Positions 483-47,782 of a DNA stretch of 64,000 nucleotides are shown piece after piece. Under the pieces are notes generated by a model. It was not told the DNA's origin. It was given only the letters and a program-made list of their open reading frames with translations, and did no database searches. The position numbers were made by a program, and so were the translations under genes. Every line of letters starts with the position of its first letter. Position 1 is the stretch's first letter. Origin of the DNA: an uncultured Candidatus Saccharibacteria bacterium (GTDB lineage Bacteria; Patescibacteriota; Minisyncoccia; Phycocordibacterales; GWA1-40-21); assembly GCA_964539415.1 (NCBI GenBank), contig CAZIID010000001.1, positions 11,979-75,978 on the forward strand, read 5' to 3'.

Positions 483-802
483 ATGTTTCGGGTGAAACAT
501 AATCAGAATTGTTCGTAAATAAAAAAGAAGGGCTTCGAACACTATACAAATATCAATGAAGCTGAAAACAGTAGGAATTTCGACCGTTACACGGTCAGTA
601 CCCCTTTCCCATTTACTCATAATCAGAATTACTCGTAAATAGGGGAAAGGGCTTCGAATCCTACACAAAAACAATAATATTGCTTTCGCGAGATATATAG
701 GACCGTGAGTACACTTTTCGACCGTTACACGGTCAGTACCCCTTTCCCATTTACTCATAATCAGAATTACTCGTAAATAGGGGAAAGGGCTTCGAATCCT
801 AC
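483..802 (+). repeat. Tandem direct repeat with about a 139-bp period: two near-identical 86-bp cores (578-664 and 717-802) plus a degenerate third copy (about 483-550). Each unit carries two hairpins and ends in GGGCTTCGAATCCTAC.
   Basis: Copies A and B are identical over about 86 bp (TTCGACCGTTACACGGTCAGTACCCCTTTCCC...GGGGAAAGGGCTTCGAATCCTAC). Each contains a GACCGT/ACGGTC hairpin and a CCCTTTCCC/GGGAAAGGG hairpin. The 121-aa ORF 393..758 is only a translation artefact of this repeat. Confidence 0.75.
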
Positions 803-8290: not shown

Positions 8291-10237
8291 ATGAATCATC
8301 TTGAAGGTTTAAACGAGCAACAGAAGGCGGCAGTCCTCCAAAAGGACGGCCCAATACTTATAATCGCAGGTGCCGGTGCAGGAAAAACAAAAACAATCAC
8401 ACATAGGATAATGCATTTAATAAAAGAAGGAGTCGCACCACACGAAATACTTGCTATCACTTTTACAAACAAGGCAGCAAAAGAAATGAGAGAGAGGGTA
8501 GAAAAAATAATCTCCGAAGACAACTCCCTTAACCTTCCTATAAAAAATAATGAGAGACCTTTTCTCAGTACCTTTCACTCTCTTGGAGTTCACATCATAA
8601 AAGAGAACAGTCGGCTTGTTGGAGTTTCAAGAAACTTCTCCATTATGGATAGAAGTGATTCAAAAAGAATTATCAAAGATATTCTTAAGTATCTTGATAT
8701 AGATCCGAAACAATATGAGCCTGGAAAAATAATTTCCGCTATTTCTATGGAAAAAAGCAATTTGAACTCACCTGAAAATTTTCTGGAAACTGCCGATAAA
8801 AAAGGGTATACAATGTCTTCTGTTGTAGCACGAGTTTGGCCATTATATGAAAAAAAACTTCTAGAAGAAAAAGCTTTGGACTTTGATGATTTGCTTTTGA
8901 AAGCTTACAAAATATTAAACGAGAATAAAGACGTCTTGGAACACTATCAAAATGTTTGGAAATATATTCATATAGACGAATATCAAGACACAAACAAAGT
9001 TCAATACATGACAAGCAGACTTTTGGCGCAAAAAAGTAAAAATATTTGTGTTGTGGGAGACATAGACCAAAATATTTATAGTTGGAGAGGTGCAAATATA
9101 GAAAACATTTTAAATTTTGAAAAAGACTACCCAAATGCAAAGGTTATTTTGCTTGAAGAAAATTATCGTTCAACACAGACAATTCTAAATGTTGCAAATA
9201 AAGTTATTTCAAAAAACAAGATGCGCCGTGAGAAAAATCTCTTCACAAAAAATGAAGAGGGAGAAAAAATAACTTATTGTAAAAGTCTAAATGAGAACGA
9301 AGAAGCTAGGTTTATAGCCAGAAAAGCGCAGAAGCTTATAGCAGATGGTGTTAACCCACAGGAAATGGCTGTGCTCTATAGAGCAAACTTTCAATCTCGT
9401 GTATTAGAAGAAGCTTTTATTTCAGAGAGCGTTCCTTACCAAGTCCTCGGTACAAAATTCTTTGAAAGAAAAGAAGTCAAAGATGTTTTGTGTTATCTTC
9501 GTGCCTCAATGAATCCAGAAAGTTTAAGTGATCTCAAAAGAATAATAAATATTCCTGCTCGAGGTATAGGCAAGGTTACAATGATGAAAATATTTGAAGG
9601 TAGAAAAGATTCACTCCCTGACACAATAAAAATTAAGGTGAATGATTTCTTTTCTTTATTACAGAGAATAAAAAATGAAACTGCAGAAAAAAAACCTTCT
9701 GAAATAATTAAATACATAATAAGAGAAAGTGGTTTAGAAAGAGAAATGCAAGGTGGGGGAGATGAAGACAAAGAAAGGTTAGAAAACATGCGTGAACTTG
9801 CAACTCTTGCAATAAAATATGATGTCTATCCAAAGCCTGAAGGTATAGAAAAACTTTTAGAAGAAGCTTCACTTGCAACTGACCAAGATTCTTTAGAAAA
9901 AAATGAGAAGGCAGTTAAACTTATGACTGTTCACGCATCAAAAGGACTTGAGTTTGACTATGTTTTTATCACTGGACTTGAAGAAGATCTTTTCCCTCAT
10001 CAAGCAATCGGCAAGGACGAAAAAACACCAGAAGAAATGGAAGAAGAGAGAAGACTGTTTTATGTGGCACTAACAAGAGCAAGAAAAAAGATTTTTCTTA
10101 CCTGCGCAGAAATGAGAACAATTTTCGGTTCACAACAAATGAATCTTCCATCACAATTCTTCGCGGATATTGATTCTGAATTTTTGGAAGAAGAAAACTT
10201 TGAATATCGCGAAAAAATCGTCTACCTAGAGTGGTAG
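8291..10237 (+). CDS. pcrA: UvrD/PcrA/Rep family ATP-dependent DNA helicase
   Basis: Walker A AGAGAGKTKT and the conserved SF1 helicase motifs (TFHSLG, VDEYQDTN, YRSTQ, VHASKGLEFD) are present. Confidence 0.85.
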   Translation: MNHLEGLNEQQKAAVLQKDGPILIIAGAGAGKTKTITHRIMHLIKEGVAPHEILAITFTNKAAKEMRERVEKIISEDNSLNLPIKNNERPFLSTFHSLGVHIIKENSRLVGVSRNFSIMDRSDSKRIIKDILKYLDIDPKQYEPGKIISAISMEKSNLNSPENFLETADKKGYTMSSVVARVWPLYEKKLLEEKALDFDDLLLKAYKILNENKDVLEHYQNVWKYIHIDEYQDTNKVQYMTSRLLAQKSKNICVVGDIDQNIYSWRGANIENILNFEKDYPNAKVILLEENYRSTQTILNVANKVISKNKMRREKNLFTKNEEGEKITYCKSLNENEEARFIARKAQKLIADGVNPQEMAVLYRANFQSRVLEEAFISESVPYQVLGTKFFERKEVKDVLCYLRASMNPESLSDLKRIINIPARGIGKVTMMKIFEGRKDSLPDTIKIKVNDFFSLLQRIKNETAEKKPSEIIKYIIRESGLEREMQGGGDEDKERLENMRELATLAIKYDVYPKPEGIEKLLEEASLATDQDSLEKNEKAVKLMTVHASKGLEFDYVFITGLEEDLFPHQAIGKDEKTPEEMEEERRLFYVALTRARKKIFLTCAEMRTIFGSQQMNLPSQFFADIDSEFLEEENFEYREKIVYLEW

Positions 10238-10245
10238 AATATTAT

Positions 10246-10997
10246 CCACTTGGTAGCGTCGCCACCAAGTGTTATAATCTAAAAATGGGACAAAGAAAAA
10301 CACCTTTCATAAACAATGAACTTTATCATATCTTTAATCGTGGAGTTGATAAAAAAGAAATTTTTATTGAAAAAGAAGATTACTTTCGTTTTATTGAAGA
10401 AATAAAAGAATTTAATATTGATAGACCAATAGGTAGTTTATACGAACTTTCGTTTGAAAGAAAAAAACTTGATAAAAAATCAGCATTTGGTAGCGACGCC
10501 ACCAAATTGGTTGATATTATTGCATATAATATCAATCCTAATCACTTCCATTTAATCTTAAAACAAAAAAAGATGGTGGAATCGGAAAATTTATGCAAAA
10601 AATTGGAACAGGCTATGTAAAATATTTTAATGAAAAAACTCACAGAACTGGTTCACTATTCCAAGGACCATTCAAGTCTGTTCACATTGATAGCAATGAA
10701 TATCTACTTTATTTAAGTGCTTATGTAAATTTAAACGATAAAATACATAAAATAGAAGACTCCTTTGGTTTTTCTAGTCTCCATGAGTATATTCAAGATA
10801 ACAAAGATGGAATGTGTGAAAAATCAATAATATTAGAACAATTTAGCAACAAAAAATATAATTATGAAGAGTTCTTAAATAAATCTCTACAGCAAATGAT
10901 AGAGACAAAAGAAGGTAACAAGAAGATGGAGAAGTATCTTCTGGAAAACTAACCATTGTCTACTAGCTATTTGGTAGCGTCGCTACCAAATAGCTAG
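10246..10997 (+). mobile_element. IS200/IS605-like (RAYT-like) element: Y1 HuH transposase gene flanked by palindromic TTGGTAGCGTCGC(C/T)ACCAA hairpins at 10246-10271 and 10963-10997; a third copy at 10485-10507 lies inside the gene
   Basis: The hairpins are seen directly in the sequence; the right-hand one is a perfect 35-bp palindrome. They flank a transposase whose N-terminus has the YHIFNRG motif. Confidence 0.6.
10285..10952 (+). pseudogene. IS200/IS605-family (REP-associated tyrosine transposase-like) HuH transposase, split by a frameshift in an A7 run near 10561-10572
   Basis: ORF1 has the YHIFNRG motif and the HuH motif NPNHFHLIL. ORF2, in the other frame (10593..10952), continues with KFMQKIGTGYVKYFN...GSLFQGPFKS...YLSAYVNLN (catalytic Tyr region). 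Joining the two frames requires a 1-nt slip within AAACAAAAAAAG. Confidence 0.55.
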
Positions 10998-11017
10998 TAA
11001 ATACATCAAAAACAAAC

Positions 11018-11818
11018 ATGAGTATAAAAGCTAAAAAATCATTAGGGCAAAATTTCCTCAAATCAGGGGCGATTTTAGATAAGATAATAATTGCCGGAAG
11101 CGTGGGTAAAGACGATCTAGTGCTAGAAATAGGCCCTGGAGAGGGTGCGCTCACCGAAAAATTGCTTGAAAAAGCTAAAAAAGTCATTGCTGTTGAAAAA
11201 GACGACAGACTTATTGGTGTTTTAGAGCAAAAATTCGCCAAAAACATAGAAAATGGCTCTTTTGAACTAATTCATGATGATATACTCGAATCAGACATAC
11301 AAAAATACGGCTTAAAATCTGAAGAATACAAGCTTATAGCGAACATTCCATACTATATTACTGGCCAAATTTTCAGAAAATTCCTTTCTGGACCAATTCA
11401 GCCCAATAAAATGGTAGTTTTGGTGCAAAAAGAAGTAGCTCAAAGGGCTGTTGCAAGAGATGAAAAAGAAAGTTTACTCTCTATCAGCATAAAAATCTAC
11501 GGAGAACCAAAAATGATGGGGGTAGTAGCTAGGGGGAACTTCAACCCTGTGCCAAATGTTGATTCAGCAATACTACTTGTGGACAATATTTCAAAGGACT
11601 TCTTTGCCGGTTTCACTGAAGATTCTTTTTTTGAAGTTTTAAAAGCCGGTTTTGCCCACAAAAGGAAACAAATAGCCGGAAATTTAAAAGACTTAATAAA
11701 AGACGGCGAAAAAGTAAGCACTTTGCTCAAAAAATGTGATATAGATGAAAAAAGTAGGGCAGAAGACCTAAATAAAGAAGATTGGGCAAAAATTGTGATA
11801 GAATATGGGGAAATATGA
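11018..11818 (+). CDS. rsmA: 16S rRNA (adenine1518/1519-N6)-dimethyltransferase
   Basis: SLGQNFL motif, SAM-binding LEIGPGEGALT, and overall KsgA architecture. Confidence 0.85.
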   Translation: MSIKAKKSLGQNFLKSGAILDKIIIAGSVGKDDLVLEIGPGEGALTEKLLEKAKKVIAVEKDDRLIGVLEQKFAKNIENGSFELIHDDILESDIQKYGLKSEEYKLIANIPYYITGQIFRKFLSGPIQPNKMVVLVQKEVAQRAVARDEKESLLSISIKIYGEPKMMGVVARGNFNPVPNVDSAILLVDNISKDFFAGFTEDSFFEVLKAGFAHKRKQIAGNLKDLIKDGEKVSTLLKKCDIDEKSRAEDLNKEDWAKIVIEYGEI

Positions 11819-13389: not shown

Positions 13390-14337
13390 ATGCAAAATCT
13401 TAGACAATATCTTCCGTCAAAAAAGTTCGCTATTATTTTAATCTCTATTATTGTTGCATTAGTAATCATCTTTATAACAAAAACTTTTGTTAACATTAAA
13501 GACTCAGGCGAAGCAGAGGTAACCGCAGAAGTAAAAAAAGAAATCGCTTTGCGTGAACAATTTTTAGAAGTAGATTCAGACAACGATGGATTGAAAGATT
13601 GGGAAGAATCTTTATGGCAAACCGATCCAAAAAATCCTGACACGGACGGGGACGGCACAAGCGACGGTGCTGAAATAAAAGCTTATAGAGACCCATTGAA
13701 AGCTGGACCTAATGACGGTTTTGACCCAAAAGAAATCGCTGAAACAAAAAAAATTATAGATGAATATGAAAGTCTTAGTGTAACAGAAAAATTTTCAAGA
13801 ACCTTATTTTCTCAATATCTAGCAACACAAAAAGCAGACACTGCTATGTCAGAAAGCGACGCCAACTATCTTGTTGAGAATATGCTCGCTGACCTACCAA
13901 AAGAAACCCTAACAGATAAATATTTATCAAGTGATATTTCTGTGCTGACAGATGCGACAACTGAAGACTTAGATATTTATAGAAGTAAACTCGTGAATAT
14001 ACTTGATAAAAACTTCTGGTCATATTTCACGACTGAGATGACTATTTTCCAAAATGCAATGAGCACAGACAGCAAAGATGAACTTAAAAAATTAGACCCG
14101 ATCATTCAAAGTTATAAAGATGCATCTATCGCAGTAAGTAAATTAAAAACTCCTGAAATATTTAAAACAAATGGTGTTAATATCGCAAACTTATTATATA
14201 ATATGTCCATATCAGTTCAAGGTTTCAAAACTGTTTTTGAAGATTCTATTCCTGCACTCATGGCCTATGATAATTTTTATGTTTATTACAATCTATTAGA
14301 CAAGGAAATTGCTGAATTAAATTTATATAATAACTAA
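13390..14337 (+). CDS. Secreted/membrane-anchored hypothetical protein with a thrombospondin-type-3-like Ca-binding Asp repeat (DSDNDGLKDWEE...DPKNPDTDGDGTSDGAE); first gene of the T4SS-like operon
   Basis: N-terminal TM/signal segment and DxDxDG repeats. Confidence 0.45.
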   Translation: MQNLRQYLPSKKFAIILISIIVALVIIFITKTFVNIKDSGEAEVTAEVKKEIALREQFLEVDSDNDGLKDWEESLWQTDPKNPDTDGDGTSDGAEIKAYRDPLKAGPNDGFDPKEIAETKKIIDEYESLSVTEKFSRTLFSQYLATQKADTAMSESDANYLVENMLADLPKETLTDKYLSSDISVLTDATTEDLDIYRSKLVNILDKNFWSYFTTEMTIFQNAMSTDSKDELKKLDPIIQSYKDASIAVSKLKTPEIFKTNGVNIANLLYNMSISVQGFKTVFEDSIPALMAYDNFYVYYNLLDKEIAELNLYNN

Positions 14338-34787: not shown

Positions 34788-37700
34788 ATGATGAGCAAAA
34801 AATTCTTTCTTTATTTCATTTTTTTTCTAGTTTTACCTCTTACAACTGCTTTAACGACAAACGCTAGCACTCTTTATTTTAAGGATATTAGTGAAACCCC
34901 TGATTTTGCTTGGGATACGGTTGCAAATTGGTGGACTGATGCAGAGGCAACAATACCCGCTGCAGCCTTACCGTTAAATGGTGACGTTGTTAATATTGAA
35001 AGCAATTTAACTGCTGGCCCATCTATCCCTGTAAGTTTGAGCGTAATAGTGGTAAATAATGTTCTTTACGACGTTGTTTTCACAGGGGCTTCCGGCCCTG
35101 CTATCTTTAATGGTGCCTGTGGTAACGCTGGAACCGTTGATGGTAATGCCGAATTTAATAATGGTAGTAATAATTATGGCACTGTTACGGGGGATGCAAT
35201 TTTTAGTGCAGAATCAAAGAATAATAATGCGGCTCTAGTACAAGGGAATGCAATCTTTTGGGGGACATCGAAAAACCAAGGAACTGTAACTGGGTATGCT
35301 ACTTTTTTTGACTCGTCAATAAACGATCTAGGATCAGTCGGTGGAACCGGAACTTTCAATAATAGTTCAAGTAACAACGGAACAGTGATAGGCGCTGCTT
35401 ATTTTTATGGTAGCTCTATAAGTGAACAGGGGAGTTACTCCGCTGATGTAAATTTTTATGATAGTTCCTATAATAATGCTAGTACAATAACAAGTGCAAC
35501 TTTTAATGGAAGTTCGCGTAATGATATTAATGGAACAATTGGTACTGCTGTTTTTAATGACACGTCTATTAATAATGGAAGTATTAGCATATTAGCAACT
35601 TTCAATGGTAATTCATTAAACACCGGGACTGTTGCCTCGAGTGATTTTTATGGTAGTTCATATAATGATTATAGTGGAAATGTCACTACTGCTACATTCA
35701 ATAACACATCTTTTAATAATTATGGAACAGTTGGCACTGCAATTTTTAATGATTCCTCATTTAACGATGGGTCAGTATCTACTGCTACATTTAATAGTAC
35801 ATCATACAATAATAATGGGACTGTTGAGAATGCGACTTTTAGTGGTCAAGCATATAACGCCGGCACTGTCACCTTTTCTTATGGCACAATGTTTAGAAAT
35901 GATGCTGCAGTTACTACAAATAATGGGACAATTACGACAAACATTGGTTCGATTTCCGGAAATGATGGCACGGTCACTACTAACTCGGGAACAATTGGAG
36001 CACAAAATAATATCGTGGAGACAAACAATGGGACAATTGAAAGTAATAATAATTTTGGTTTTATTACTACAAATAATGGAACTGTCACTATAAACAGTGG
36101 ATCAGTTACGACAAATAGTAATACAGGATCTATACCGGAGATTATTGGAGTGGTAGAAACAAATAATGGTTCAATAGGTCAAACATATAATGGATCTTCG
36201 GTGACTGACAACTATGGAACTGTTTCAAATAATAATGGTGGAACTATAACAAACAATTATGGCACTGTTACAGACAATAGTACTGGAAGTGTCTCAAATA
36301 ACTACGGAACCATAGTCTTAAATGGAAATATAGTAAGTACTAATATGGAGACTGGTATAATTCAAACCAATAGTGCTGGTTCAATATCAGACAATATCGC
36401 TGGTGGCGTTGTTGGTACCAACGACGGATATATATATGGAGGTATATATACAACTTTTGTAGTTAATGATAATGGATATATTGAAGGCGGTTCCTTCTGC
36501 CAATCCCAAGCTGAAACAGGTGGCACCATCAACGCAGGCACCTTCAGCATCTCTAACTCACGCTGTTACAACGCAGCTCCAGGTATATCCATCTCCCCCA
36601 CAAATCTTTCAGTCCTAAATTCTTGGACTCCAGGTCTCTCTTTCGCAACATCAACATCATGTAGCTACAAGATAGACAGTGGTAATTATGTATCACTAAA
36701 CTGTGCATCTCCTTCAATACCTGCACCATCAAACTTTCCACACTTACTGACCATAGTAGCTGAAAACCAGTACAGAACAGCAACATCAACACTCTCTTTC
36801 ATCTACTCCACACTACTCGGCATCTTCACCGGCAGTCTCACCCCATACGCAGTGCCAGCACCTACATACCACACTCTCACAGACATATACAATGTAATCA
36901 TGTCAGGTACACCATCTACTGCAGGAAATCACACACTCTCAACATCACAAACGCCGAACGCAACAACAGGTCACTCAACAAGTGAGATATATGTAAGACT
37001 TGCAAACCTTATAGACGCATCAACTATCAAACCAGGAATCACTTACCTTGGTGTTACAGGAGGAGGAGAGACACCAGATCCAATTGATCTGCCAACATCA
37101 TCTCTTACACCAACAGGGACACCAAATGACAGAACAGGTTTTTCTCTTGAAGATATATACCAACTTGTAAAGAACAATGTCAGAGTCACCTCATCAACAC
37201 ACAGTACCTCAACTTCAGCACATCCTACAGCAACTACCACTCACTCAATTGAAGATGTTTATAGAACACTGACAGCTCTTGTACAGCCGGGGAATATATT
37301 ACTTGGAGATAGTTATTTGGGAGTGGAGGGGGCGTATGTCCCCATGGAAGGTCTAGCTATCCAATACAGGATGAATGATAATACAGCAAGCACTGTTGTT
37401 GTTGATACTTCTGATAATGCAATAAATGCATCTTCCTCACGAAACACTTCTTTGATACATACTGACTCTGGTAATCCGCCATCGCTAAACGGAGCATTTG
37501 CTTTTAATGGCACATCCGATGGAGTTACAGTTCTTGATTCTGCAACTTTTACTAATAATTTTACTATTGCTTTCTGGTATTACGCAGATAGTGATTCAAC
37601 TGGAACTAGAAGCCTATACTGGATTCATGTCCCTGGTTACAATAACTATTTCTCACAATTATCTATGGCACATAACTTAAATGTTTATGGATGGTCAAAT

Positions 37701-42461: not shown

Positions 42462-45302
42462 ATGAAAAAACAAAACAAAATAATCTTTTCTTTTCTAGTT
42501 TCTATCATCCTATTTTTGGGATTTAGTTTTTCAAATACTTATGCCGCTACTTTGTATTTTAATAATAACACAGGAGATGGTACTTGGGATACTTCTGAAA
42601 ATTGGTGGAGCGATGTATCAATGCAGACCCCCGCTGGATCAATTCCAAGTAATGGAGACGCTGTCTACATTGCCGCAGATATTTGCACAGGACCATCTCA
42701 GACTGTAAATCTGGACCATGTATATGTGGCTGATGAAAGTACTGGAGGAGGAAACTTTACTGTTAATTTGTCGAATGCTGTGAGTGATGTCACTTTTAAT
42801 AATGGTTCCTATAATTACTACGGCAGCGCGATTACTGGAAATGTTACTTTTACCGGCAGTTCTTATCCATTTAATCCTATAAGCCAAGACTTCTTCTACG
42901 GAGGCTCTGTGACTGGTTCAGTAACCTTTACGGCAGACAATGTCACTTTTACTATCGGGGATGGCCAATACTGGAATATGGACACTTCTTCGTGGATTTT
43001 TACAGGAGTAGGTACACCAACGTGGATTTTTAATGGAGGAACTTTAAACAGTACAACTATTAATGGTAATGCTATTTTTAATTTTGGTTCTTATAGTTAT
43101 TCTTCGAAAGTGGATGGTAATGCTACATTTACTGGAACTTCATATTCAAATGATCCGACAGGAGTTGATATGCAAGTTAATGGTTCGGGTGTTACTGGAA
43201 CCGTAACCTTCACCGGGGATAATGTAACTTTTTCAGTCAGTAACTTTGTATGGCAGACTGAGGCGTCATCATGGATTTTTACAGGAGAAGGGACACCCAC
43301 CTGGACCTTTGAAAGTGGGTCAGATTTAAATTATGGAACGATACATGGTAATGCCGTTTTTAAGGCTGGTTCAATTTTTAGTTACGGAACCGTAGTAGGT
43401 GATGTCACTTTTTACGGAAGTTCACAAAATGGAAATAGAATAGAAGGTAGTGCGATCTTTAATGGAAGTTCATATTTAAACGACCCGACAAGGGATCCCA
43501 ATGTGGGAAGTTCGGCGGGAATCACCGGGACAGTTACTTTTACAGGGAATAATGTCACTTTTACATTAGAAAGTGAGCATACTTGGGATTCGGACACATC
43601 ATCATGGATTTTTACAGGTAGTGGTGCTCCTCTATTAATAAACGAAAGTTCGATAAATGGCGGAACTTTTTTTATCCCGATTAGAAATGATAACACTATA
43701 GAAGGTGGAATATTTCATGGTTCGATAACAAATAATAATTATATATATAATGGCAGTTTTTATTCCCTCGTAACAAACAATGGAACAATTTACGGTGGAT
43801 CATTTTGTCAGTCTCAGGCCGAAACAGGCGGTTCAATAGAGGATTATAACGGAGTTACTTTTGGAATAAGCAACCCTCTCTGTTACAACACTCCCACTTC
43901 CATCATTGTTAATTCTCCAACAAATCTTTCCGTCCTTTCTTCGTGGTCCCCATCAATCTCTTTCACTGGCTCTCCAACAACGTGTAAATATAAAATGGAC
44001 AGTGATGACTATGTAACACTTGATTGTAATTCCATGTCTATTCCTACACCAACTGAGTGGCCACACTTACTTACTGTGACAGCAGAAAGTCCATATGGTG
44101 GATCTACTTCAACAATCTCTTTTATCTTCTCTACTCTACTTGGTAATTTCACAGGTTCTCTCTCACCAATCGCATTACCTGCACCAACTCACCACACACT
44201 TGGAGACATATACAACGTAATAGTAGAGGGAACACCATCAGAGACAAATGATCATACTCTCTCAACTACTACAACTCCTACAGCAACCACCACACACTCA
44301 ACAAGTGAGATATACGCACGTCTTGCAAACCTTATTGATGCATCAACTATCAAATCAGGAGTAACATACCTTGGTGTCACAGGAGGAGGAGAGACACCAG
44401 AGCCAATTGAGATTATACCAACATCACTTACACCACTTCTCACACCAAATGACAGAACAGGTTTCTCTCTTGAAGATATATACCAACTCGTAAAGAACAA
44501 TGTAAGAGTTACTTCATCAACTCATGATATTACAAACTCGTCCACTGTCGGTCTAACTCAACATTCTATTGAAGATATCTATAGAACTCTTACTGCTCTG
44601 ATACAGCCGGGGAATGTTTTACTTGGAGAGAGTTATTTGGGGGTGGAGGGAGCTTATGATCCAAGACCGATTGCACAGTGGAAGATGAATGATAATGCTG
44701 GGTCTACAACAGTCCTAGACAGTTCAGGAAATGGACTTGACGGAACTGCAATACAGAATACGAGTGTTATTCATGCGACGGGTGTTGTGGGCGGGGCGTT
44801 GAGTTTTGATGGTGTGAGTGACACTGTATCAATAAATAATTTTACTATGGATGCAGATTGGTCAATTGATGGTTGGATTAAACCGACGATTAATCAAGTT
44901 GGTGCGATAATTTCACAATCAACTGATAGTAATAACAATGCGGTCATATTTCTCCAAGGTGCCAATAATGGAGAACTAACATTTTATGTTAATTCAGAGG
45001 GAAATAACGTCGTAAACGTTGCTTCTGCTGGAGGATTTAATTTGAATGAGTGGAAGCATTTTGTTTTAGCTTATGATGGAATTGATTATCATTTTTATAT
45101 TAATGGTGTTGAAGGGACTACTGTGTATAATAATGCTCAGTCGTGGGGTAGTTATAGTGGAAACTTGGTTCTAGGACATCGTGATATGGATGATAGTTAC
45201 TATTTTGGTGGTTTAATGGACGATGTAAGAGTCTATAACAGAGCTTTATCACAAGAAGAAATCAGTGCACTCTATAATTCAGGTAACGGAACAGAGAATT
45301 AA
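42462..45302 (+). CDS. Giant secreted surface protein; paralog of the gene at 34788..38012 (beta-helix-like repeats, conserved central module, LamG-like C-terminal domain)
   Basis: Shares the N-terminal ATLYF...W.T..NWW.D motif, the approximately 285-aa central module and the LamG-like C-terminus (WKHFVLAYDGIDYHFYINGVEG...LMDDVRVYNRALS). Confidence 0.6.
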   Translation: MKKQNKIIFSFLVSIILFLGFSFSNTYAATLYFNNNTGDGTWDTSENWWSDVSMQTPAGSIPSNGDAVYIAADICTGPSQTVNLDHVYVADESTGGGNFTVNLSNAVSDVTFNNGSYNYYGSAITGNVTFTGSSYPFNPISQDFFYGGSVTGSVTFTADNVTFTIGDGQYWNMDTSSWIFTGVGTPTWIFNGGTLNSTTINGNAIFNFGSYSYSSKVDGNATFTGTSYSNDPTGVDMQVNGSGVTGTVTFTGDNVTFSVSNFVWQTEASSWIFTGEGTPTWTFESGSDLNYGTIHGNAVFKAGSIFSYGTVVGDVTFYGSSQNGNRIEGSAIFNGSSYLNDPTRDPNVGSSAGITGTVTFTGNNVTFTLESEHTWDSDTSSWIFTGSGAPLLINESSINGGTFFIPIRNDNTIEGGIFHGSITNNNYIYNGSFYSLVTNNGTIYGGSFCQSQAETGGSIEDYNGVTFGISNPLCYNTPTSIIVNSPTNLSVLSSWSPSISFTGSPTTCKYKMDSDDYVTLDCNSMSIPTPTEWPHLLTVTAESPYGGSTSTISFIFSTLLGNFTGSLSPIALPAPTHHTLGDIYNVIVEGTPSETNDHTLSTTTTPTATTTHSTSEIYARLANLIDASTIKSGVTYLGVTGGGETPEPIEIIPTSLTPLLTPNDRTGFSLEDIYQLVKNNVRVTSSTHDITNSSTVGLTQHSIEDIYRTLTALIQPGNVLLGESYLGVEGAYDPRPIAQWKMNDNAGSTTVLDSSGNGLDGTAIQNTSVIHATGVVGGALSFDGVSDTVSINNFTMDADWSIDGWIKPTINQVGAIISQSTDSNNNAVIFLQGANNGELTFYVNSEGNNVVNVASAGGFNLNEWKHFVLAYDGIDYHFYINGVEGTTVYNNAQSWGSYSGNLVLGHRDMDDSYYFGGLMDDVRVYNRALSQEEISALYNSGNGTEN

Positions 45303-45379: not shown

Positions 45380-47782
45380 ATGGCAGATAAAAAAGAGAAC
45401 AAAAAACTAGTACTACTCGATGTTCATGCAATCATCCATCGCGCATATCACGCACTTCCTGATTTTGCGACTAGTAAGGGAGAACCAACCGGTGCGCTTT
45501 ATGGTCTCTCGACAATGTTGCTTAAAATTATCTCTGACATAAAACCAGACTACATTGTCGCGTGTTATGACTTACCAAAACCGACTTATAGGCATGAGGC
45601 TTATAAAGACTACAAAGCTGGTAGAGCAAAAGCAGATGATGAACTCGTATCACAGCTTAAAAAGTCATACGACATTTTTAAAGCTTTTGATATTCCAGTT
45701 TATTCAAAAGAAGGTTTTGAAGCTGATGATATGATAGGAACGATCGTTGAACAAGGTAAGAAAGATAAAAACCTAGATATTGTTATTGCTTCGGGAGATA
45801 TGGACACTCTCCAACTTGTAGAAGGGGATAAAGTGAAAGTATATACACTTAAGAAGGGGATTAAAGATACGATTGTCTATAACGAAAAAGCAGTTGAAGA
45901 AAGATTTGGTTTTTCAGCAAGACTTTTGCCAGACTATAAAGGGCTTCGTGGTGACCCATCTGATAATATTATCGGCATAAAAGGAATTGGTGAAAAGACA
46001 GCGAGTGAACTAATACAGAAATTTGGTTCAATTGAAGAAATATATAAAACACTCAAAAAAGATAGAAAGAAACTTTTGGATGCTGGGGTGAAAGAACGAA
46101 TCGTTGGACTTCTTGAAACAAATGAAGAGGAGGCTCTATTCTCAAAAATGCTTGGAACTATAAGGCGAGATGCACCAATAGATTTTGTATTGCCAGAAAA
46201 AACATGGAAAGAAGGATTGGATTTTGAAAAAATAAATAATGTCTGGGTAGAACTTGAGTTTAGAACGTTAGGTTCAAGGCTTAAAACTGTACTAGGTGAA
46301 AAAGTTTCAATTGATGTTGATAACTCAGATGATTTGGTGGCGACGCTACCAAATAAAGAGAGCTTGGGAGCCTCGCTTCCAAGTGAGAAAATTGCTGAAC
46401 TTTCTGTAATACTCTGGTTAATTAACTCTACAATCACAACTCCTAAACTTGAAGATATATATAATTTTACAAAGACAAAAGATGGAGTTTCTGCGGAGAA
46501 GATTTTGTTGGATGAGATAAAAAATAAGGGGCTTTCTGAAGTTTGGGAAAAAATTGAAAAGCCGTTACTTCCAATAATAGTAGAAATGAAAGTGAATGGA
46601 ATAAAAGTAGATTCAAATGCACTCGTAGCACTTTCAAAAGAGTATCATGAAAAACTGTCTGAGCTTGAAAGAAAAATCTGGGAATTGTCTGGTGTAGTTT
46701 TTAATATAAATTCTCCAAAACAGCTTGGTGAAGTTTTGTTTACAAAGCTTGGACTAAAGCCAAAGAATCAAAAGAAGACAAGTAGTGGAGCAATGTCTAC
46801 AAAAGAATCTGAACTAGAAAAAATGCGTGATTTACATCCTGTGATACCTTTTATTTTTGAACATAGAGAATTACAAAAACTTCTTTCTACTTATATAGAT
46901 GTAATACCAAGTCTACTAGACGAAAAACAGAGACTTCATGCAACTTTCTTGCAAGCAGGAACAACGACAGGAAGAATGGCATCAAGTGAGCCAAATTTGC
47001 AAAACATTCCGATTAGAAGTGATCTAGGTAAAAATATAAGGAAGGCATTTATTGCAGAGAAAGGTTTTAAACTTGTTGCTTTTGATTATTCACAAGTTGA
47101 ACTGAGAATTGCGGCTTTTCTTTCTGGTGATAAAAAACTTATAGATATTTTTAAAAAAGGGGAAGATGTTCATACTGCTGTAGCCTCTGAAGTTTTTAAT
47201 GTTCCACTTGATGCTGTAGATAAAGAAATGAGAAGAAGAGCAAAGATAATAAACTTTGGAATAATGTATGGAATGGGAGTAAACGCATTGAAACAAAATC
47301 TAGGTACTGACAGAAAAGAAGCACAGATATTTTATGATGAATATTTTAAAAAGTTTGAAGGATTAGCAAAATATCTTGATAACACAAAAGCAAATGCACA
47401 AAGAAAAGGGTATACGGAAACATTTTTTGGTAGAAGAAGATATTTTGAAGGTTTACAATCTAAGTTGCCTTTTATAAAGGCGATGGCAGAGAGGATGGCT
47501 ATCAATGCGCCAATTCAAGGTACAGAAGCCGACTTAGTGAAACTTGCGATGGTTGAGGTGGATAAATATTTGGAAGGGCAAAAATTGAAAAATAAGGTGA
47601 AGATACTTTTGCAGGTTCATGATGAACTAGTTTATGAAATTTCAGAAGATGTTATCGGAACAGTTGTAAATAATATTAAAAAAATAATGGAAGGTCTGAT
47701 TCCGCCAGAAAAAGTATCAGGAATTGTATGTAAAACAACCATTGAAGTGGGGGATAACTGGCTAGAAATGGAGGAGATTTAG
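45380..47782 (+). CDS. polA: DNA polymerase I (5'-3' exonuclease + polymerase domains; no obvious 3'-5' exonuclease)
   Basis: N-terminal FEN-like 5' nuclease domain. Polymerase motifs A (DYSQVELRI), B (RRRAKIINFGIMYG) and C (QVHDEL). At 800 aa it is too short to include a proofreading domain. Confidence 0.85.
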   Translation: MADKKENKKLVLLDVHAIIHRAYHALPDFATSKGEPTGALYGLSTMLLKIISDIKPDYIVACYDLPKPTYRHEAYKDYKAGRAKADDELVSQLKKSYDIFKAFDIPVYSKEGFEADDMIGTIVEQGKKDKNLDIVIASGDMDTLQLVEGDKVKVYTLKKGIKDTIVYNEKAVEERFGFSARLLPDYKGLRGDPSDNIIGIKGIGEKTASELIQKFGSIEEIYKTLKKDRKKLLDAGVKERIVGLLETNEEEALFSKMLGTIRRDAPIDFVLPEKTWKEGLDFEKINNVWVELEFRTLGSRLKTVLGEKVSIDVDNSDDLVATLPNKESLGASLPSEKIAELSVILWLINSTITTPKLEDIYNFTKTKDGVSAEKILLDEIKNKGLSEVWEKIEKPLLPIIVEMKVNGIKVDSNALVALSKEYHEKLSELERKIWELSGVVFNINSPKQLGEVLFTKLGLKPKNQKKTSSGAMSTKESELEKMRDLHPVIPFIFEHRELQKLLSTYIDVIPSLLDEKQRLHATFLQAGTTTGRMASSEPNLQNIPIRSDLGKNIRKAFIAEKGFKLVAFDYSQVELRIAAFLSGDKKLIDIFKKGEDVHTAVASEVFNVPLDAVDKEMRRRAKIINFGIMYGMGVNALKQNLGTDRKEAQIFYDEYFKKFEGLAKYLDNTKANAQRKGYTETFFGRRRYFEGLQSKLPFIKAMAERMAINAPIQGTEADLVKLAMVEVDKYLEGQKLKNKVKILLQVHDELVYEISEDVIGTVVNNIKKIMEGLIPPEKVSGIVCKTTIEVGDNWLEMEEI
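46332..46354. mobile_element. REP-like hairpin ATTTGGTGGCGACGCTACCAAAT embedded in-frame in the polA inter-domain linker (translated DLVATLPNK)
   Basis: Same palindrome family as the hairpins flanking the RAYT-like transposase at 10246, 10485 and 10963. Confidence 0.6.

What the first reader, a model, noticed from the sequence alone, without database searches (positions are those of the whole stretch)
46332..46354. Transposase-cognate REP-like hairpin sits in-frame inside polA
The same 23-bp palindrome family that flanks the RAYT-like gene occurs within the linker between the 5' nuclease and polymerase domains of polA. There it is translated as DLVATLPNK without breaking the frame. A second coding copy lies inside the transposase gene itself (GSDATK). 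In-frame insertion of palindromic elements in protein linkers is reminiscent of Rickettsia palindromic elements, and suggests an active or recently active hairpin-mobilising system.
Basis: seen in the sequence. Interest (0 to 1): 0.5.

Follow-up and report, generated by a model that had tools for sequence, protein, structure and literature searches.

The report
Transposase-type hairpins inside polA linker
Two short DNA hairpins, of the kind recognised by a domesticated transposase encoded 35 kb away, sit in frame in the floppy linker of DNA polymerase I in a tiny CPR bacterium; this kind of event is already known from Rickettsia and proteobacteria, but this transposase gene is unusual because it carries the same hairpins inside its own coding sequence.

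Summary
ATTTGGTGGCGACGCTACCAAAT (46332-46354) lies in frame in polA (D318-K326). It belongs to the palindrome family found at a Y1/HUH RAYT-like gene at 10285-10952, with copies upstream, inside the ORF and downstream. Both fall in a predicted disordered linker. The nearest relative (90% PolA identity) shares both hairpins. The next relatives (84%) lack them. PolAs at 72-73% identity carry family hairpins in the same linker, one in another reading frame, so acquisition is recurrent.

The copy inside the transposase ORF is not an accident. Six of six RAYT loci have hairpins in the promoter, at one or two fixed loops inside the ORF, and after the stop codon. Stems differ between genomes but match within a genome. 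Copy number is low, so this is not a classical high-copy REP. The RAYT is frameshifted (A7) in 7 of 8 assemblies of this organism and intact (A8) in one.

In-frame REPs in polA linkers are already published for proteobacteria, so the polA part is a new member of a known kind. The RAYT cassette architecture is a new variant. Mobilisation is inferred, not shown.

The parts
45380..47782 (+). polA (DNA polymerase I, 800 aa; 5'-nuclease plus polymerase domains, reduced middle region)
   Evidence: ORF. Pfam 5_3_exonuc_N, 5_3_exonuc and DNA_pol_A. NCBIfam PRK05755 scores 813 bits.
46298..46384 (+). Hypervariable, predicted disordered interdomain linker (about residues 307-335) that holds both hairpins
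   Evidence: The orthologue alignment is unalignable and length-variable here. pLDDT is below 50 for residues 307-331.
46332..46354 (+). polA hairpin 1 (the finding): ATTTGGTGGCG-A-CGCTACCAAAT, core 46334-46352, encodes L319-N325. It is the same type as the hairpins at the window's RAYT gene.
   Evidence: It folds as a hairpin on the + strand. It lies in a 37-nt run (46325-46361) that is identical to the sister genome, although the gene as a whole is 83.5% identical.
46362..46384 (+). polA hairpin 2: GCTTGGGAGC-CTC-GCTTCCAAGT, core 46364-46382, encodes L329-S335.
   Evidence: The homologous hairpin is perfect in L001 and is present at the same linker position in L074 and L075 (72% PolA identity).
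10248..10270 (+). Upstream RAYT hairpin ACTTGGTAGCG-T-CGCCACCAAGT, which overlaps the promoter-like site of the RAYT gene
   Evidence: The best promoter-like match in the region is TTGGTA, 17 nt, TG-n-TATAAT (10250-10278), with the ATG 7 nt later. The same layout is seen in L007, L009 and L010.
10285..10952 (+). RAYT-like Y1 (HUH) transposase gene, split by a 1-nt frameshift in this assembly
   Evidence: Two ORFs. The merged 222-aa product hits PF01797 at 27.7 bits against a cut-off of 23. Homologues are single ORFs of 210-225 aa. The model's best PDB match is 4ER8_A, TnpA_REP.
10485..10507 (+). In-ORF hairpin at conserved 'site 1' of the RAYT gene (F-G-S-D-A-T-K), in the loop before the HUH strand
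   Evidence: It lies in the low-confidence loop at residues 62-75 of the model.
10565..10571 (+). A7 tract that causes the frameshift (CAA AAA AAG). An A8 allele restores the ORF.
   Evidence: Seven other assemblies of the same organism are identical across the locus except at this tract. Six have A7, and L080 has A8 and is called as one 240-aa Y1_Tnp ORF.
10961..10999 (+). Downstream RAYT hairpin, core 10971-10989, extended to a perfect 18-bp stem with a 3-nt loop
   Evidence: DNA fold of -17.9 kcal/mol, z = -9.6.
8291..10237 (+). pcrA/uvrD-type helicase, the conserved left neighbour of the RAYT cassette
   Evidence: The order pcrA-RAYT-ksgA is shared by L007 and L009. The site is empty in L084.
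11018..11818 (+). ksgA/rsmA, the conserved right neighbour of the RAYT cassette

Best explanation
The 23-bp palindrome in polA is one of two tandem copies of a roughly 21-nt hairpin module, A-Y-TTGG-N5-N-N5'-CCAA-R-T. This module is the cognate single-strand DNA hairpin of a single-copy RAYT-like Y1 (HUH) transposase encoded between pcrA and ksgA.

Shown here:
- The module family is tied to this gene family. In every locus examined, copies sit in the gene's promoter, at one or two fixed loops inside its ORF, and just after its stop codon.
- Stems differ between genomes but match within a genome.
- Extra copies occur in frame in disordered or loop segments of housekeeping proteins: the polA linker in several lineages and a KsgA loop in two.

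Inferred:
- The Y1 enzyme, acting on single-stranded DNA as TnpA_REP and IS200/IS605 TnpA do, pasted the modules there.
- They survive because the unit spans 7 codons, has no obligatory stop codon in any frame, and landed in a structurally permissive segment.
- Hairpin 2 (TTGGAAGC type) is an old insertion. Hairpin 1 matches the present RAYT hairpins and is a later addition next to it. Both predate the split from the nearest sequenced relative.
- Retention of pairing (only G.T-type deviations, and a 37-nt invariant block) suggests the DNA or RNA structure is still under constraint, most simply as a binding site for the RAYT protein.
For: - Family and chance: 5 copies in the window against 0.05 expected. 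Across 244 kb of CPR loci there are 24 against 0.74 expected, and all but two lie at RAYT genes or in polA linkers.
- Enzyme: PF01797 is hit above its cut-off. HUH and Tyr are invariant. The best fold match is TnpA_REP bound to a REP hairpin, 4ER8_A, E = 1.6e-7.
- Cassette architecture holds in 6 of 6 loci.
- Covariation: 98.5% of cells are paired, 5 of 10 pairs have compensatory changes, and the score is 0.447 against 0.182 in shuffles (0 of 500 reach it).
- Protein-level covariation: the middle three residues of the site-1 and site-2 heptapeptides are 83% identical within a protein and 25% between proteins. Residues 3 and 5 have reverse-complement-compatible codons in 116 of 132 cases against 65.6 in shuffles.
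- polA: both hairpins are shared with L001 and absent from L002 and L005. Hairpin 2 is present in L074 and L075. An independent perfect hairpin sits in another frame in L076.
- L001 has an additional clean 33-nt (11-aa) palindromic insertion in a 5'-nuclease loop, unique among 34 orthologues.
- KsgA loop insertions occur in P0283 and P0316.
- The linker is predicted disordered.
- Precedent: in-frame REPs in DNA polymerase I and other repair genes (PMC3733652). TnpA_REP processes single-stranded REPs in vitro (PMC8266576).
Against: - No transposition event or enzyme activity was observed. Everything about mobilisation is inferred by analogy.
- Copy number is very low. Outside the RAYT cassette only polA carries copies in 64 kb. 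Exact-pattern scans of 185,579 species genomes and of the JGI metagenomes returned only the sister genome's polA copy plus unrelated hits.
- The RAYT is frameshifted in 7 of 8 assemblies.
- One relative (L002/L007) has an intact RAYT but no polA hairpins.
- Independent hits on the same polA linker and the same KsgA loop could reflect targeting or selection for a function rather than passive tolerance.
- The G.T position favours the + strand in the polA copies but the - strand in the RAYT upstream and in-ORF copies. This is unexplained.
Confidence: 0.68

Rival explanations
1. The polA hairpins are exapted functional elements rather than tolerated passengers. Under this reading the RAYT-type hairpin in the polA linker is selected, either as a RAYT binding or nicking site that couples the enzyme to Pol I expression, or as an mRNA structure that pauses translation between the two Pol I domains. 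That would explain why it recurs and is conserved.
For: - Hairpin 2's stem is retained across PolAs that are only 72% identical, while the surrounding linker is unalignable.
- Hairpin 1 sits in a 37-nt invariant block where third-codon positions elsewhere in the gene are 63% identical.
- There are at least three independent acquisitions in the same linker, in two reading frames.
- Both polA hairpins have their G.T position on the sense strand.
- Di Nocera 2013 notes that intragenic REPs are concentrated in replication and repair genes, and that these are sometimes the only REP-carrying ORFs in a species.
Against: - The close relatives L002 and L005 do without any hairpin. One of them keeps an intact RAYT.
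- KsgA carries the same kind of insert in two genomes, so polA is not unique.
- No terminator-like or promoter-like signal accompanies the polA hairpins.
- The sample of loci is biased towards polA.
Confidence: 0.2
2. The palindromes are double-stranded operator sites for a dimeric DNA-binding regulator, possibly unrelated to the Y1 protein. Their symmetry would then reflect two-fold protein symmetry, not hairpin formation.
For: - The upstream copy overlaps the -35 and spacer of the RAYT promoter-like site in 4 of 5 loci.
- Palindromic covariation alone cannot separate hairpin pairing from a symmetric duplex site.
Against: - All 7 departures from perfect symmetry in 20 copies are G.T or A.C (transition) positions, as expected for strand pairing.
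- Copies lie inside ORFs and after the stop codon, where an operator has no obvious role.
- The adjacent gene encodes a fold whose closest solved relative is crystallised on a single-stranded REP hairpin.
- Stems change between genomes together with the RAYT gene.
Confidence: 0.06
3. The match is coincidental or protein-driven. Under this reading DLVATLPNK is an ordinary linker peptide whose DNA happens to be palindromic.
For: The linker is compositionally unconstrained, so odd sequences can drift in.
Against: - Zero matches in 100 shuffles.
- The palindrome is identical in type to three copies at the RAYT gene.
- A second family hairpin lies 30 nt away.
- Different reading frames are used in different lineages (LVATLPN, LEALLPS, LGGDASK), which argues against a peptide-level cause.
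Confidence: 0.02

Closest known systems
REPtrons: RAYT / TnpA_REP genes with flanking REPs (Nunvar 2010, PMC2817692; Messing 2012, PDB 4ER8; Corneloup 2021, PMC8266576; Bertels 2017, PMC5581495)
   Same: - A single Y1 HUH enzyme gene is bracketed by its own short palindromes.
- The gene behaves like a housekeeping gene: the order pcrA-RAYT-ksgA is conserved in three genomes.
- Palindrome stems co-evolve with the enzyme.
- The best structural match is TnpA_REP.
   Different: - Cognate hairpins also sit inside the ORF at one or two fixed loops, and in the promoter.
- Copy number elsewhere is very low, not the tens to hundreds typical of REPs and REPINs.
- There is no conserved GTAG or CGTC head. 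The conserved feet are TTGG/CCAA instead.
- The protein reaches only 21.4 bits on the NCBIfam REP_Tyr_transpos model (cut-off 80), and a profile of the family finds no PDB sequence.
- The hosts are CPR/Patescibacteria.
Intragenic REPs in replication and repair genes (Di Nocera et al. 2013, PMC3733652)
   Same: - REP-type palindromes are inserted in frame in DNA polymerase I, UvrD, UvrA and similar genes.
- R. palustris RPE_4821 Pol I carries a REP dimer at aa 338-367, which is the same interdomain region.
- These are sometimes the only ORFs with REPs in a genome.
   Different: Those are GTAG- or CGTC-tagged REPs of REP-rich proteobacteria, usually dimers encoding 20-30 aa. Here the inserts are two separate 7-codon units of a TTGG/CCAA family in a small, low-GC CPR genome with few copies.
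Rickettsia palindromic elements (RPEs; cited in PMC3733652 as its refs 13 and 14)
   Same: Palindromic repeats are inserted in frame into genes that stay functional, typically at surface or loop positions.
   Different: RPEs are much longer (roughly 100-150 bp, from memory), are numerous, and have no identified cognate transposase. There is no sequence relationship.
IS200/IS605 insertion sequences (IS608 and ISDra2 TnpA; PDB 2VJV, 2XM3)
   Same: They share the Y1 HUH fold (Foldseek E of 2e-5 to 1e-4). They use sub-terminal hairpins recognised as single-stranded DNA. Precise excision is a family property, and L084 shows a clean empty site.
   Different: Here there is no tnpB, no multicopy whole elements and a syntenic chromosomal position. 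The hairpins are near-perfect palindromes and are present inside the gene.

Membership tests
RAYT / TnpA_REP (REPtron) | Y1 HUH nuclease fold with the HUH motif and a catalytic Tyr | tested here: met
   PF01797 scores 27.7 bits against a cut-off of 23 on the merged protein. H87, H89 and Y147 are invariant in 29 homologues. The AlphaFold model (pLDDT 82) has 4ER8_A as its top hit at E = 1.6e-7, followed by IS608 and ISDra2 TnpA.
RAYT / TnpA_REP (REPtron) | Reaches the curated sequence model for REP-associated tyrosine transposases | tested here: not met
   NCBIfam NF047646 REP_Tyr_transpos scores 21.4 bits against a cut-off of 80. A profile of alignment A2 finds no PDB sequence at E <= 1.
RAYT / TnpA_REP (REPtron) | Gene flanked on both sides by cognate palindromes, classically in inverted orientation | tested here: met
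   Flanking copies are present in all 6 loci. The downstream loop is the reverse complement of the upstream loop in L007, L009 and L011. In the window the centre base is the same in both copies.
RAYT / TnpA_REP (REPtron) | Single copy, vertically inherited, housekeeping-like | tested here: inconclusive
   There is one copy in 64 kb. The pcrA-RAYT-ksgA synteny holds in the window, L007 and L009. The gene sits at other positions in L010 and L011 and is absent from the syntenic site in L084. No whole genome was available.
RAYT / TnpA_REP (REPtron) | Cognate palindromes dispersed at high copy number (REP/REPIN population) | tested here: not met
   The window has 5 copies in 64 kb, 3 of them at the gene. 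The RAYT-locus flanks have no further clear copies; L011 has one weak singleton at 13874, consistent with chance. The sister genome has a single exact-pattern match. The metagenome scan found none related. Caveat: no complete genome of the window organism was scanned.
RAYT / TnpA_REP (REPtron) | Conserved GTAG (or CGTC) head next to the palindrome | tested here: not met
   GTAG and CGTC occur inside the window's stem only. The relatives' stems (GGAGGC, GGCGTC, GGAAGT) lack them. The invariant bases are TTGG/CCAA.
In-frame intragenic palindromic elements (intragenic REPs / RPE-like) | The palindrome belongs to a repeat family with other copies in the same genome | tested here: met
In-frame intragenic palindromic elements (intragenic REPs / RPE-like) | The host ORF stays intact and close orthologues lack the inserted residues | tested here: met
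   The 800-aa ORF keeps all its domains. P0002 and P0003 are 7 codons shorter at this point. There are clean analogous cases: an 11-aa insert in L001 polA and 7-9-aa inserts in KsgA.
In-frame intragenic palindromic elements (intragenic REPs / RPE-like) | The insert lies in a surface loop or linker | tested here: met
   pLDDT is 22-26 for residues 311-330. The L001 insert falls in the loop at residues 127-131, between H115-126 and E132-137.
Rickettsia palindromic elements proper | Sequence membership in an RPE family | not tested
   No RPE sequences were compared. The length (21-23 nt against about 100-150 nt, from memory) and the host make membership implausible. Only the behaviour is shared.
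IS200/IS605 autonomous insertion sequence | The whole element is multicopy or mobile, often with tnpB | tested here: not met
   There is a single syntenic copy, no tnpB next to it, and no hits in viral contigs.

The most novel reading that the evidence does not exclude
In CPR bacteria a RAYT-like Y1 enzyme and its hairpin form a compact, domesticated, self-referential system. The gene carries its own recognition hairpin in its promoter, in one or two fixed loops inside the ORF, and at its 3' end. All copies are kept identical within a genome and change in concert between genomes. The few extra copies are placed, or kept, in selected housekeeping genes such as the Pol I linker, where they function, for example as enzyme docking or nicking sites linked to lagging-strand processing. 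An A7/A8 tract would switch the enzyme off and on. This would be a RAYT system that works without a REP population.
Probability: 0.2. Interest if true: 0.8.

Novelty: new variant of a known kind. Interest (0 to 1): 0.58.

Why it matters
What RAYTs do, and how REPs are copied, has been an open question since 2010. The classical systems are hard to dissect because they carry hundreds of REP copies. This system is minimal: one enzyme gene, three or four hairpins on the gene itself, and a handful of dispersed copies. The hairpin sequences co-vary strictly with the gene. Several insertions can be dated, with old-type and current-type hairpins side by side in polA, a clean lineage-specific insert in the sister genome, and an empty RAYT site in another relative. 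That makes questions about recognition, copy replacement and autoregulation directly testable. It also shows that 7-codon hairpin modules contribute to protein-length variation in CPR housekeeping genes. This matters for annotation and for alignment-based phylogeny. The polA insertion alone is an expected extension of a published phenomenon.

Tried and rejected
- Genome-wide count through public collections. The exact pattern TTGGTRGCGWCGCYACCAA was scanned in genome contigs (28 stretches) and metagenome contigs (34). Apart from the sister genome's polA, all hits are unrelated organisms, mostly high-GC coding sequence plus a separate Gastranaerophilales element.
- RAYT relatives in viral contigs: none found.
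- Known RNA families: Rfam gathering scan of the window finds only two tRNAs.
- Terminator or internal promoter at the polA hairpins: none found.
- Programmed -1 frameshift at A_AAA_AAG as a family feature: rejected. Homologues are single ORFs, and an A8 allele of the same organism is intact. Slippage at the A tract is not excluded.
- 'polA is the unique target': weakened. Two KsgA homologues carry the same kind of insert.
- 'The in-ORF RAYT copy is a recent insertion': rejected by the conserved position and the within-protein covariation.
- PDB sequence search with the family profile: no hit. Only the fold search links the family to TnpA_REP.
Full report
**1. The observation**

Positions 46332-46354 read ATTTGGTGGCGACGCTACCAAAT. 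This is a palindrome with one G.T position. It lies inside an 800-aa ORF, 45380..47782. That ORF is DNA polymerase I: Pfam places 5'-3' exonuclease domains at residues 9-275 and DNA_pol_A at 414-796, and NCBIfam PRK05755 scores 813 bits. In frame the palindrome encodes D318-L-V-A-T-L-P-N-K326.

At up to 3 mismatches the 23-mer has three more sites, at 10248-10270, 10485-10507 and 10969-10991. None is expected by chance.

It is TTGGGAGC-CTC-GCTTCCAA at 46364-46382, 30 nt downstream in the same reading frame (L329-S335). On the + strand the two polA copies fold as two adjacent hairpins (-13.2 kcal/mol, z = -3.9).

The organism is a low-GC (34%) CPR/Paceibacteria-like bacterium, judged from the names on the closest PolA homologues.

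**2. The gene the hairpins belong to**

An ORF pair lies between a pcrA/uvrD helicase gene (8291-10237) and ksgA (11018-11818). The pair spans 10285-10620 and 10593-10952. Joined across a single missing A in a CAAAAAAAG tract, it gives a 222-aa protein.

- That protein hits Pfam Y1_Tnp (PF01797) at 27.7 bits, above the cut-off of 23.
- It reaches only 21.4 bits on the curated NCBIfam REP_Tyr_transpos model, whose cut-off is 80.
- More than 2,000 homologues exist. All are single ORFs of about 210-225 aa, several are labelled 'REP element-mobilizing transposase RayT' by JGI, and most come from CPR MAGs.
- The HUH histidines and the Tyr are invariant.
- An AlphaFold model (pLDDT 82) has the E. 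coli TnpA_REP-REP hairpin complex 4ER8_A as its best PDB match (E = 1.6e-7). IS608 and ISDra2 TnpA follow.
- A sequence profile of the family finds nothing in the PDB. The family is therefore a distant RAYT-like branch.

**3. The cassette architecture (the main new point)**

I looked at the DNA of five homologous loci plus the window. Every one has the same layout:

- one hairpin 16-24 nt before the ATG;
- one hairpin inside the ORF at about codon 60 (site 1), just before the HUH strand;
- in L010 and L011, a second in-ORF hairpin at about codon 150 (site 2), after the Tyr helix;
- one hairpin 4-19 nt after the stop codon.

The stem differs between genomes:

| Locus | Hairpin |
|---|---|
| window | TTGGTAGCG.CGCTACCAA |
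| L007 | TTGGAGGCCTCGCCTCCAA |
| L010 | TTGGCGTCCAGGACGCCAA |
| L011 | TTGGAAGTTCAACTTCCAA |
| L009 | TTGATAAGCCAGGCTTATCAA |

Within a genome all copies agree. On 20 aligned copies, 98.5% of cells pair and 5 of 10 pairs show compensatory changes. The covariation score is 0.447 against 0.182 in shuffles, and none of 500 shuffles reaches it. All departures from symmetry are G.T or A.C positions.

The protein sequences say the same thing. Of the 120 closest homologues, 82 have a heptapeptide [LFIVM]-G-x-x-x-[SPTA]-[KN] at site 1, 50 have it at site 2, and 41 have both. The three variable residues are 83% identical between the two sites of one protein and 25% identical between proteins. Residues 3 and 5 have reverse-complement-compatible codons in 116 of 132 cases, against 65.6 in shuffles (maximum 80).

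It is not an accidental hit. In the model both sites are loops.

The upstream copy coincides with the best promoter-like site. Its 5' foot, TTGGnn, serves as the -35 element. A 17-nt spacer and an extended -10 (TG-n-TAnnnT) follow, and the ATG comes 6-8 nt later. This layout is seen in 4 of 5 loci. It suggests autoregulation and a leaderless mRNA; both are inferences.

**4. Is the polA palindrome an insertion?**

The segment between LEFRTLG and LWL is the most variable part of PolA. It is unalignable between clades and varies in length. It is predicted to be disordered, with pLDDT of 22-26 for residues 311-330.

- The nearest relative (P0001/L001, 90% aa and 83.5% nt identity) has both hairpins. 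Hairpin 1 lies in a 37-nt invariant run (46325-46361), although third-codon positions of the gene are only 63% identical. Hairpin 2 is a perfect palindrome in L001.
- The next relatives (P0002/L002 and P0003/L005, 84%) lack both hairpins and are 7 codons shorter.
- More distant PolAs (L074 and L075, 72%) keep a hairpin-2-type element at the homologous position: TTGGAAGCTCGACTTCCAA and TTGGAAGCTCGGCTTTCAA, each followed by the same GTGAGAAA.
- L076 (73%) has a perfect TTGGAGGCGACGCCTCCAA at another place in the linker and in another frame, encoding SLGGDASKL.
- Further candidates at the protein level are P0021 (LGSSASK), P0031 and P0032 (LGGDISK), and P0042 and P0045 (LEARLPS).

The linker has therefore acquired family hairpins several times. 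Hairpin 2 is of the TTGGAAGC type, which is the cognate type (LGS.ASK) of many related RAYTs. Hairpin 1 is of the type now present at the window's own RAYT. I read this as an old insertion and a younger one side by side.

Two further cases show that frame-preserving palindromic insertions do happen in these genomes. L001's polA has a clean, lineage-specific net insertion of 33 nt (11 aa). It is a perfect 40-nt palindrome, CTCCGACGCTTTGGTCGGAG|CTCCGACCAAAGCGTCGGAG, in a 5'-nuclease loop, and it is unique among 34 orthologues. Two KsgA homologues (P0283 with LGSPASK; P0316 with LGGDTSK, on the same 295-kb contig as L076) carry 7-9-aa inserts at one loop that back-translate to perfect family palindromes.

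**5. How common are the hairpins?**

Not very. Across 244 kb of CPR DNA (the window plus ten loci) there are 24 family hairpins against 0.74 expected. L009's three copies, whose palindrome is 21 nt, are additional to this count. Of the 24, 14 lie at RAYT genes and 8 in polA linkers. The remaining 2 are weak singletons.

The exact-pattern scans of the species-genome collection and of the JGI metagenomes returned only the sister genome's polA copy plus unrelated sequences. A classical high-copy REP or REPIN population is therefore not supported by the data I could reach. I could not scan a complete genome of the window organism.

**6. State of the enzyme**

Through a 100%-identical KsgA, the same organism was found in seven other assemblies (L077-L083). 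Their pcrA-RAYT-ksgA region is identical to the window's except at the A tract. Six have A7 (frameshifted, as in the window). One (L080) has A8 and is called as a single 240-aa Y1_Tnp ORF. This could be homopolymer phase variation, a very recent mutation, or an assembly artefact. It does mean the gene is not an old pseudogene.

In a relative at 86% KsgA identity (L084, from the same sample as polA locus L006), the pcrA stop codon overlaps the ksgA start (TAATG). There is no RAYT and no hairpin, so the site is empty. That genome's polA also has no hairpins. L002/L007 has an intact RAYT but no polA hairpins.

**7. Mechanism**

Shown:
- family membership of the polA hairpins;
- in-frame placement in a disordered linker;
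- their phylogenetic distribution;
- co-variation of hairpin and gene;
- the Y1 fold of the enzyme.

Inferred from the biochemistry of TnpA_REP and IS200/IS605 TnpA (PMC8266576; PDB 4ER8):
- The Y1 enzyme recognises the folded single strand and cuts and joins it. This pastes or replaces hairpin units.
- The unit spans 7 codons and has no obligatory stop codon in any frame, so insertions into permissive loops survive.
- The in-ORF and promoter copies give the enzyme sites on its own gene. These could serve autoregulation, or act as protected master copies that keep all copies identical.

Retention of pairing in polA hairpins over long divergence hints at continuing constraint. I cannot say whether that constraint is RAYT binding, an mRNA structure, or something else.

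Unexplained: the G.T position favours the + strand in the polA copies but the - strand in the RAYT upstream and in-ORF copies. GC skew is positive on the + strand throughout the window.

**8. Comparison with what is known**

In-frame palindromic repeats in genes are established. Examples are the Rickettsia RPEs and the intragenic GTAG/CGTC REPs of proteobacteria. The latter are concentrated in replication and repair genes and include a REP dimer at aa 338-367 of R. palustris DNA polymerase I (PMC3733652). The polA finding is therefore a new member of a known kind, in a new phylum-level lineage.

Several features are not described in the RAYT/REP papers I read (PMC2817692, PMC5581495, PMC3733652, PMC8266576):
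- a RAYT-like gene with cognate hairpins at fixed positions inside its own ORF and in its promoter;
- strict within-genome identity of those copies;
- very low dispersed copy number.

No paper in the library links RAYTs or REPs with CPR bacteria. I rate the whole as a new variant of a known kind.

**9. Verdict**

- Observation: confirmed.
The cognate in-frame hairpin and the RPE-like behaviour hold. 'Recently active' and 'second incidental coding copy' do not hold as stated.
- Interest: 0.58. The polA part is moderate. The RAYT cassette architecture is the more valuable lead.

Noticed in passing
window 10565-10571; L077-L083: The RAYT gene is interrupted only by an A7 tract (CAA AAA AAG, which is formally an A_AAA_AAG -1 slippery heptamer in the right frame). 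Of seven other assemblies of the same organism, six have A7 and one (L080) has A8 with an intact 240-aa ORF. Nothing else differs over 820 nt. The cause could be phase variation, slippage rescue or an assembly artefact.
   Followed up: partly
L001 3191-3230 (polA of the sister genome): A perfect 40-nt palindrome, CTCCGACGCTTTGGTCGGAG|CTCCGACCAAAGCGTCGGAG, adds a net 33 nt (11 aa, RLRRFGRSSDQSVGE region) in a loop of the 5'-nuclease domain. It is unique among 34 PolA orthologues. Its core, TTGGTCGGAGCTCCGACCAA, resembles the family but is 20 nt long.
   Followed up: partly
P0283 aa 202-208; P0316 aa 200-206 (KsgA homologues; P0316 is on the same 295-kb contig as L076): Two KsgA proteins carry 7-9-aa inserts (PLGSPASKW, SLGGDTSKL) at the same loop. 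Both back-translate to perfect TTGG-N11-CCAA palindromes of different stem types. This means either independent hits on one loop, or one old insert whose stem was later updated. No DNA was available.
   Followed up: partly
L084 5120-5140: Empty site: in a relative with 86% KsgA identity the pcrA stop and ksgA start overlap (TGG TAATG). No RAYT cassette or hairpin remnant is present. That genome's polA (L006, identical protein to L005's P0003) also lacks hairpins.
   Followed up: partly
window 578-664 and 716-802: A perfect 87-nt direct repeat, spaced 138 nt, with a long internal hairpin and a tRNA-like 3' end (GGGCTTCGAATCCTAC). It lies next to tRNA-Arg (869-941, - strand) and tRNA-Gly (1061-1132, + strand). 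Neither ARAGORN nor Rfam calls it.
   Followed up: no
window 36928-37338 and 44251-44658: Two segments of 274 nt and 97 nt are 82-85% identical. They are the C-terminal parts of two paralogous large repeat-rich surface-type proteins. One of them (42462-45302) lies immediately upstream of polA.
   Followed up: no
PolA linker of other clades (e.g. P0004, P0006, P0008, P0010, P0082, P0087): Many orthologues have a short N-[TE]-G-L-F-[AG] motif in the same linker. It looks like a beta-clamp-binding motif (from memory only). The window's clade lacks it and has the hairpin-coded peptides instead.
   Followed up: no
L012, L013, L018, L033, L036, L045, L060: The identical 19-mer TTGGTAGCG(A/T)CGCTACCAA, with conserved flanks (cttgc...gtccctcc), recurs in several Gastranaerophilales MAGs. 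It appears twice, 212 nt apart, in L013. This is an unrelated repeated or conserved element.
   Followed up: no
L076 13938-15321: A bAvd-like gene plus a reverse transcriptase (a DGR-like pair) lies 1.5 kb downstream of polA in a related CPR genome.
   Followed up: no
window 10250-10268, 10487-10505 versus 46334-46352, 46364-46382: Strand asymmetry: the single non-Watson-Crick position is G.T on the - strand in the RAYT upstream and in-ORF copies, but G.T on the + strand in both polA copies. GC skew is positive on the + strand along the whole window.
   Followed up: partly
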